Of a DNA stretch of 64,000 nt, positions 25,360 through 25,573 are shown piece by piece. Made by a program: the position numbers and the translations under genes. The stretch's first letter is position 1. Every line of letters starts with the position of its first letter. The stretch comes from Mobula hypostoma (Eukaryota): contig NC_086108.1 in assembly GCF_963921235.1 (NCBI RefSeq), positions 72,170,001-72,234,000 of the forward strand, written 5' to 3'. The notes beneath the pieces were generated by a model. That model was not told the DNA's origin. It made no database searches and worked only from the letters and a program-made list of their open reading frames with translations.

Positions 25360-25573
25360 CGCAAACATGAGGAATTCTGCAGATGCTGGAAATACAAGCA
25401 ACACATCAAAGTTGCTGGTGAACGCAGCAGGCCAGGCAGCATCTCTAGGAAGAGGTACAGTCAATTCTGCAGATGCTGGAAATTAGTCCTGACGAAGGGT
25501 CTCAGCCTGAAACGTCGACTGTGCCTCTTCCTAGAGATGCTGCCTGGCCTGCTGCGTTCACCAGCAACTTTGA
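25360..25573. mobile_element. Penelope pseudo-LTR fold-back element
   Basis: Arms 25407-25462 and 25517-25573 are near-perfect inverted repeats; sequence matches the Penelope 3' end at 25870-26002. Confidence 0.85.
25485..25520 (+). ncRNA. Minimal type I hammerhead ribozyme (Penelope-type)
   Basis: AGTC-CTGACGA-AGG(gtctcag)CCT-GAAA-CG-TC^GACT: stem I AGTC/GACT, intact CUGANGA and GAAA boxes, stem II AGG/CCT, palindromic ACGT stem III and a GUC cleavage triplet. Confidence 0.8.

What the first reader, a model, noticed from the sequence alone, without database searches (positions are those of the whole stretch)
25360..25573. Inverted Penelope copy begins exactly at the hammerhead cleavage site, followed by a template-jump scar
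Seen: the minus-strand arm starts at 25462 with GACTGTACC, exactly the 3' product of GUC^GACU cleavage. An uncut copy would continue into gacg, as at 25971. Next to it, 25463-25483 duplicates the 21 nt at 25374-25394 from near the element's 3' end, and then the opposite-strand copy with the full ribozyme begins. Inference: reverse transcription ran to the 5' end of a ribozyme-cleaved RNA, jumped to a 3'-terminal segment and then inverted. This would be a genomic fossil of ribozyme processing during Penelope retrotransposition.
Basis: partly seen in the sequence, partly recalled or inferred. Interest (0 to 1): 0.7.

Follow-up and report, generated by a model that had tools for sequence, protein, structure and literature searches.

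The report
Penelope insertion ending at ribozyme cut
This is a 220-base, two-armed insertion of a very abundant Penelope-like jumping gene in which one arm starts exactly at the predicted cut site of the element's small self-cutting RNA, likely because it was copied from an already cut RNA, but most copies of the family start about 30 bases further upstream and the overall layout is already known.

Summary
The minus arm (25359-25462) starts at the first base after GUC of a minimal hammerhead. Bases 25463-25484 copy the start of the element's 3' tail, and the plus arm (25483/5-25573) carries the whole ribozyme. An 8-bp target duplication (ATCTATTA) frames everything as one insertion. Head-to-head 5'-truncated arms with a tail at one end are the textbook Penelope-like layout. 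I laid contigs of four runs on a full copy. The main 5' boundary is 26000-26002, the 5' edge of helix I, 30-32 nt upstream of the cut (998 of 4374 partly laid contigs in run X1, partly inflated by an older subfamily). Yet 3 of 23 distinct rearrangement joints shown leave from exactly the cut (P about 4e-4 if uniform), two with one extra A, which fits a minority of cleaved-RNA templates. Helix-I self-complementarity and a CpG at the cut are live confounders. Verdict: known architecture, with an even-odds fossil of in vivo cleavage.

The parts
25351..25358 (.). Left copy of 8-bp target-site duplication ATCTATTA
   Evidence: chance 120 of 20000
25359..25462 (-). Minus-strand arm: runs from the first base after the predicted hammerhead cut (25462) to the outer 3' end, including the ~35-40-nt tail
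   Evidence: outer and inner 3' ends near reference 25871 and 25906
25463..25484 (-). 20-22-nt templated piece copied from the start of the tail; its last two bases (TT) are shared with the plus arm
25483..25573 (+). Plus-strand arm: starts at the family's main 5' boundary (reference 26002-26004), carries the whole hammerhead, has no tail and ends about 11 nt short of the inner 3' end
25485..25520 (+). Minimal type-I hammerhead motif: helix I AGTC/GACT, core CTGACGA (25489-25495), extra A, helix II, GAAA (25509-25512), palindromic CG helix III, predicted cut between 25516 and 25517; the helix II closing pair is decayed to G-U
   Evidence: fold of the single motif
25574..25586 (.). 5-nt spacer AGAAA and right copy of the target duplication (25579-25586)
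25860..26340 (-). Separate, longer copy of the same family, used as reference: ORF end (LRLEEHLIFRLGSLKPDGMNIDFSNFR*), pyrimidine-rich 3' region, hammerhead with GAAA decayed to AAAA, tail

Best explanation
This is one target-duplicated, head-to-head insertion of a Neptune-type Penelope-like element, likely made from two cDNAs primed on both target strands, in which the minus arm likely ends at the hammerhead cut because it was copied off an already cleaved RNA. Shown: arm boundaries, tail on one arm only, 8-bp duplication, a tail-derived 20-22-nt bridge, and two family-wide 3' ends about 35 nt apart. Inferred: both nicked strands primed reverse transcription at the two internal start zones. 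One cDNA ran to the family's usual 5' boundary at the 5' edge of helix I (uncut RNA). The other ran off at the cut, restarted in the tail zone, and the two cDNA ends were joined through TT/AA. Cleaved RNA would be a minority template. My odds: about 0.9 for the architecture, about 0.5 for cleavage as the cause of this end.
For: Exact start at the 3' product with no microhomology at that joint. Among 23 distinct same-strand joints drawn from the 27 rows shown, 3 leave from exactly 25970 (P about 4e-4 under a uniform 158-nt span; 0.009 allowing +-1), and 2 of them carry one extra A. R2 reverse transcriptase adds non-templated bases and jumps when it runs off a template (PMC4117753, passages). 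4 of 10 go-back joints land in the tail zone 25871-25884, like the focal one. The Anolis Poseidon protein nicks and extends both strands and starts at two internal sites that define the tail (PMC11167929). Head-to-head arms with a tail at one end and 8-10-bp duplications are typical (PMC8557442; PMC3846280).
Against: The cut site is not among the 24 loose-end rows shown of 1196; 26000-26002 dominates (189/262/547 in X1; 182/241/514 in X5). No tail-to-cut join is among the 27 joint rows shown. How rows were picked is not stated, so the 3-of-23 test is weak. In both extra-A joints the base before the landing site is G, so the A may be CpG decay of a junction G. The single motif folds into another hairpin rather than a hammerhead; minimal hammerheads cut poorly in vitro (PMC4209133). 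For Anolis Poseidon, cleavage was not needed for insertion and no RNA-seq ends were found at the cut. First-stage readers look for this coincidence across thousands of copies, so one hit is expected by selection.
Confidence: 0.5

Rival explanations
1. Helix-I complementarity, not cleavage, set the end. The plus-arm cDNA ends in GACT, which pairs with AGTC of the other cDNA; trimming the unpaired flap leaves an end exactly at the cut position. The tail piece was added by repair synthesis from the plus-arm end, primed by AA on the nearby tail.
For: GACT stands on both sides of the bridge on the minus strand. The cDNA folds so that its terminal GACT pairs with AGTC at the cut (-4.5 kcal/mol). The only microhomology (2 nt) is at the plus-arm junction. 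Palindromes at inverted Penelope junctions were read as self-priming (PMC3846280).
Against: A simple fold-back would show GACT once, not twice with 22 nt between, so extra steps are needed. The three cut-site joints are same-strand joints that do not use helix-I pairing.
Confidence: 0.25
2. Chance truncation, possibly 1-2 nt upstream of the cut and disguised by CpG decay (original joint CAGTC-G-A into the tail with a 1-nt overlap), picked out because readers look for this coincidence.
For: G>A at 25971 in about 10% of X1 depth (997635 of 10243264). Several CpGs of this insertion are decayed. The family is huge: 101155 contigs laid in X1.
Against: 3 of 23 joints at 25970 and none at 25969 or 25971. 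If decay made the two extra-A joints, several undecayed twins would be expected among the 15 table-5 rows shown, and none is there (inference).
Confidence: 0.22
3. Assembly or fold-back chimera of long reads.
For: Inverted repeats are prone to such artefacts (general knowledge); the best runs hold 0.88-0.91, not all, of the sampled words.
Against: 8-bp target duplication; arms differ at 1 of 57 bases and have different 3' ends; a second pair of the same layout lies at 39255-39474.
Confidence: 0.03

Closest known systems
Canonical endonuclease-bearing Penelope-like element insertions (PMC8557442; Adineta Penelopes, PMC3846280)
   Same: Inverted 5'-truncated partner, head-to-head layout, 30-40-bp tail at one end only, short target duplication, hammerhead in the terminal repeat
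   Different: Reduced to two short arms with no ORF; one arm starts at the cut site; a tail-derived bridge sits at the turn
Poseidon of Anolis carolinensis, PAc (PMC11167929)
   Same: Two 3' ends a tail apart; AT-rich target; uncut RNA as the main template fits the main 5' boundary found here
   Different: This family has a Neptune-type cysteine linker. PAc showed no RNA ends at the cut, whereas this family shows a small excess of joints there
Minimal type-I hammerheads of metazoan Penelope-like elements (PMC4209133)
   Same: Short helix I, extra base before helix II, palindromic loop-less helix III, massive copy number
   Different: No cleavage assay exists here for this family; the focal copy has a decayed helix II closing pair
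R2 retrotransposons with HDV-like ribozymes (PMC3774820, PMC4117753)
   Same: Works like it only in part: a ribozyme-made RNA 5' end recorded as a genomic 5' junction, with run-off additions and template jumps
   Different: In R2 the cut defines the standard 5' end and jumps go end-to-end; here the cut is a minor boundary and the jump lands inside the tail

Membership tests
Penelope-like element (EN+) | C-terminal GIY-YIG endonuclease at the ORF end, upstream of the terminal repeat | tested here: inconclusive
   Related older copy at 4702-5262, read with X at stops: Pfam GIY-YIG E=0.024, 15.4 bits, below the 22.6 cut-off; IIYC...LYIGET motif visible; its C-terminus matches the reference copy's ORF end
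Penelope-like element (EN+) | Penelope-type reverse transcriptase domain | not tested
   No RT portion was looked for or recovered; no genome is held
Penelope-like element (EN+) | Inverted 5'-truncated partner and optional 30-40-bp tail at one end | tested here: met
   family 3' ends near 25871 and 25906
Penelope-like element (EN+) | Short target-site duplication | tested here: met
   8 bp; 120 of 20000 by chance
Neptune clade | CX2-5CxxC zinc-finger-like linker before the endonuclease (PMC8557442) | tested here: inconclusive
   PCKRNKYYTC in the decayed copy at 4702-5262 keeps the first and last cysteines only; no tree built
Minimal type-I hammerhead | CUGANGA and GAAA boxes, NUH triplet, helices I and II, palindromic 15.2-16.2 | tested here: met
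   25485-25520; G10.1-C11.1 is G-U in this copy and G-C in the reference. Rfam gave no hammerhead match
Minimal type-I hammerhead | Self-cleavage after GUC, as a dimer or with protein help | not testable with these tools
   Only indirect: 3 of 23 joints at the site
Non-LTR retrozyme | Head-to-tail tandem units each with an intact hammerhead (bioRxiv 10.64898/2026.07.22.740005) | tested here: not met
   The locus is head-to-head and holds one complete motif

The most novel reading that the evidence does not exclude
Minimal hammerheads of this Penelope family do cut in the germ line, and the cut RNA is a minority template for retrotransposition: reverse transcriptase runs off the cut end, adds an A and restarts internally, leaving a countable class of genomic junctions. 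A family with around 10^5 laid contigs per run would then give the first in vivo read-out of Penelope ribozyme activity, with dead-core subfamilies as built-in controls.
Probability: 0.4. Interest if true: 0.6.

Novelty: new member of a known kind. Interest (0 to 1): 0.3.

Why it matters
Whether Penelope hammerheads cut in vivo is open. Activity in vitro is low (PMC4209133), and for Anolis Poseidon cleavage was dispensable and no RNA ends were found at the cut (PMC11167929). A real excess of blunt genomic 5' ends at the cut would be direct evidence, and it can be counted in any assembly of this genome. One locus cannot show it, and my partial counts put the cut well behind the boundary 30-32 nt upstream. 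That main boundary, which looks like a splice acceptor, may be the more useful lead.

Tried and rejected
No whole genome is held, so no full breakpoint histogram was possible. Rfam gave only a weak MIR2275 match at 39323-39449, E=0.12, which is the hairpin of another inverted pair. Pattern scans for other copies: viral contigs gave 1 locus, whose flanks do not resemble the element; metagenome contigs 0; genome contigs 0. No RNA holder was listed and no raw-read runs were offered. The guessed RNA run X10 is contigs and cannot show RNA ends, so circular or tandem RNA was not tested. Organism B's share of 0.65 cannot tell an empty site from a diverged filled one and was not used. The loose-end row at 25965 was rejected as a true end because its consensus is an older subfamily; part of the 26002 row has the same cause. 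Depth bins are per-contig sums and were not used. Search of earlier findings by sequence and by words gave nothing. Lunse et al. (PMC5785218) is not held.

Full report
Observation. The sequence is as described. Taking the longer copy at 25860-26340 (minus strand) as reference, the predicted cut lies between 25971 and 25970. The focal minus arm aligns from exactly the first base of the 3' product (25462) at 93%. 25463-25484 matches reference 25879-25900 at 22 of 22 and the local tail at 21 of 22. The plus arm matches from 25483 to 25573 and holds a complete minimal hammerhead at 25485-25520. I add an 8-bp target duplication, ATCTATTA at 25351-25358 and 25579-25586; 120 of 20000 random flank pairs share an 8-mer. 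The arms differ at 1 of 57 bases. Four runs of one sample of organism A hold 0.88-0.91 of 34 sampled words; that sample may be the source of the assembly, so this is not independent support.

What it is. The reference copy ends an ORF with LRLEEHLIFRLGSLKPDGMNIDFSNFR*. An older copy at 4702-5262 shows the same C-terminus after a GIY-YIG-like motif (Pfam E=0.024, below cut-off) and a decayed cysteine linker of the kind described for Neptune elements. The host being a cartilaginous fish comes from earlier AI notes and my recall, not from a call of mine. Head-to-head 5'-truncated arms, a 30-40-bp tail at one end and a short duplication are the usual Penelope layout (PMC8557442; PMC3846280). A second such pair lies at 39255-39474.

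Population test. I laid Logan contigs of four runs on 25861-26160: 101155, 56669, 20702 and 7582 contigs were laid; 4374, 4017, 1726 and 724 only partly, and some of X1 were not counted. Of 1196 loose-end rows, 24 are shown. The 3' ends fall near 25871 (459, 455, 134 in X1, X5, X9) and 25906 (192, 219, 43 in X1, X5, X10), the two-start tail signature of PMC11167929. The 5' ends fall at 26000, 26001 and 26002 (189, 262, 547 in X1; 182, 241, 514 in X5; 400 and 87 at 26002 in X9 and X10). That is the 5' edge of helix I, 30-32 nt upstream of the cut. The 26002 row is inflated by an older subfamily that diverges there; I set the 25965 row aside for the same reason. The cut site is in none of the shown rows. 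If rows are ranked by count it has fewer than 189 in X1, but rows with 17 and 3 are shown for other runs, so the ranking is not purely by count and a minor peak cannot be excluded. The focal plus arm itself starts at this main boundary.

Joints. 27 of 189 joint rows are shown (15 of 69 and 12 of 120). I dropped 1 opposite-strand row, merged 1 event seen in two runs, and merged 3 rows of one amplified family, leaving 23 events. Three leave from exactly 25970: to 26058 (blunt), to 25933 and to 25923 (one A between in each). P is about 4e-4 under a uniform 158-nt span, 0.009 allowing +-1. Six leave from 25998-26006. Of 10 go-back events, 2 start at the cut, 5 at 25999-26006, and 4 land in the tail zone 25871-25884. 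None joins the cut to the tail as the focal locus does. The numbers are small and the display rule is unknown.

Confounders. The cut sits in a CpG; the G at 25971 reads A in about 10% of X1 depth. The focal joint can therefore be read as a 1-nt-overlap joint 1-2 nt upstream that later decayed, and both extra A's could be decayed G's, since G precedes both landing sites. Helix I makes GACT complementary to AGTC, and the cDNA folds so that its end at the main boundary pairs with the four bases at the cut. Fold-back or end pairing can thus mimic a cut-site start. In the focal locus GACT flanks the bridge on both sides, which a plain fold-back would not give but a multi-step repair could.

Mechanism. 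Inferred from PMC11167929: both target strands were nicked 8 bp apart and each primed a cDNA, one from the outer start (with tail) and one near the inner start. One cDNA stopped at the main boundary. The other stopped at the cut, most simply because its RNA ended there, restarted in the tail zone for 20-22 nt, and the ends were joined through TT/AA. The bridge could equally have been made from the plus-arm end; the sequence does not fix the order. I put about 0.9 on the architecture and 0.5 on cleavage as the cause.

Comparison and novelty. It is a member of the known Penelope inverted-insertion type and carries a known minimal hammerhead (PMC4209133). It works like R2 only in that a ribozyme cut may be recorded as a 5' junction (PMC3774820; PMC4117753). 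I found no paper reporting Penelope 5' junctions at the hammerhead cut in five searches; most subscription papers, including Lunse et al., are not held. What I saw: PMC11167929 and PMC4209133, parts 1-2 of 4; bioRxiv 10.64898/2026.07.22.740005, part 1 of 5 plus a term search; passages only of PMC8557442, PMC3846280, PMC2377424, PMC6765202, PMC4117753 and PMC3774820. No supplements were read; Fig. S2 of PMC11167929 bears on genomic and RNA ends near the cut. Earlier AI notes on this genome reached a similar reading; they are unchecked and are not counted as evidence.

Verdict. Real and accurately spotted, mostly known architecture, and an even-odds single example of copying from a cleaved RNA. 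Interest 0.3.

Noticed in passing
window 26000-26015 (minus strand); also about 56538-56560 and about 5485-5505 (+): The family's main 5' boundary follows a pyrimidine tract and AG (CTCTTCCTTCAGTTAG|TCCTGA; older copies TTTTTTTTCTCCAG|TCCTG), like a 3' splice acceptor at the 5' end of helix I, where the D. virilis Penelope intron ends (PMC4209133). Exon ends in G or AG would explain the triple peak at 26000/26001/26002. Rivals are a transcription start or cDNA fold-back.
   Followed up: partly
window 39242-39487: Second head-to-head pair of an older subfamily, tail on one arm only, 13-nt duplication with 2 mismatches (39242-39254 and 39475-39487). Both arms read GAAACACTGACT, without the GUC triplet, yet one arm still starts at the helix I edge (39386), so that boundary may not need an active ribozyme.
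   Followed up: partly
table 5c, reference 26002 and 26006: Two of three single-letter joints near the main 5' boundary carry an extra C in the cDNA strand, and the loose-end consensus at 26001 starts with C in X1 and X5; this could reflect copying of a cap or of exon ends.
   Followed up: no
table 5c, reference 26013/26016 to 25980 and 25927 to 25876: Internal duplications at high depth (up to 181) or in two organisms suggest amplified or old subfamilies with a duplicated stretch covering the 5' half of the hammerhead, or the 3' end.
   Followed up: no
window 21939-23577: Element with 129-nt terminal inverted repeats (86% complementary, 1381 nt apart), likely a Tc1/mariner-type DNA transposon (name from recall).
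   Followed up: no
window 4702-5600: Older 5'-truncated copy retaining the cysteine linker and GIY-YIG-like domain with two internal stops.
   Followed up: partly
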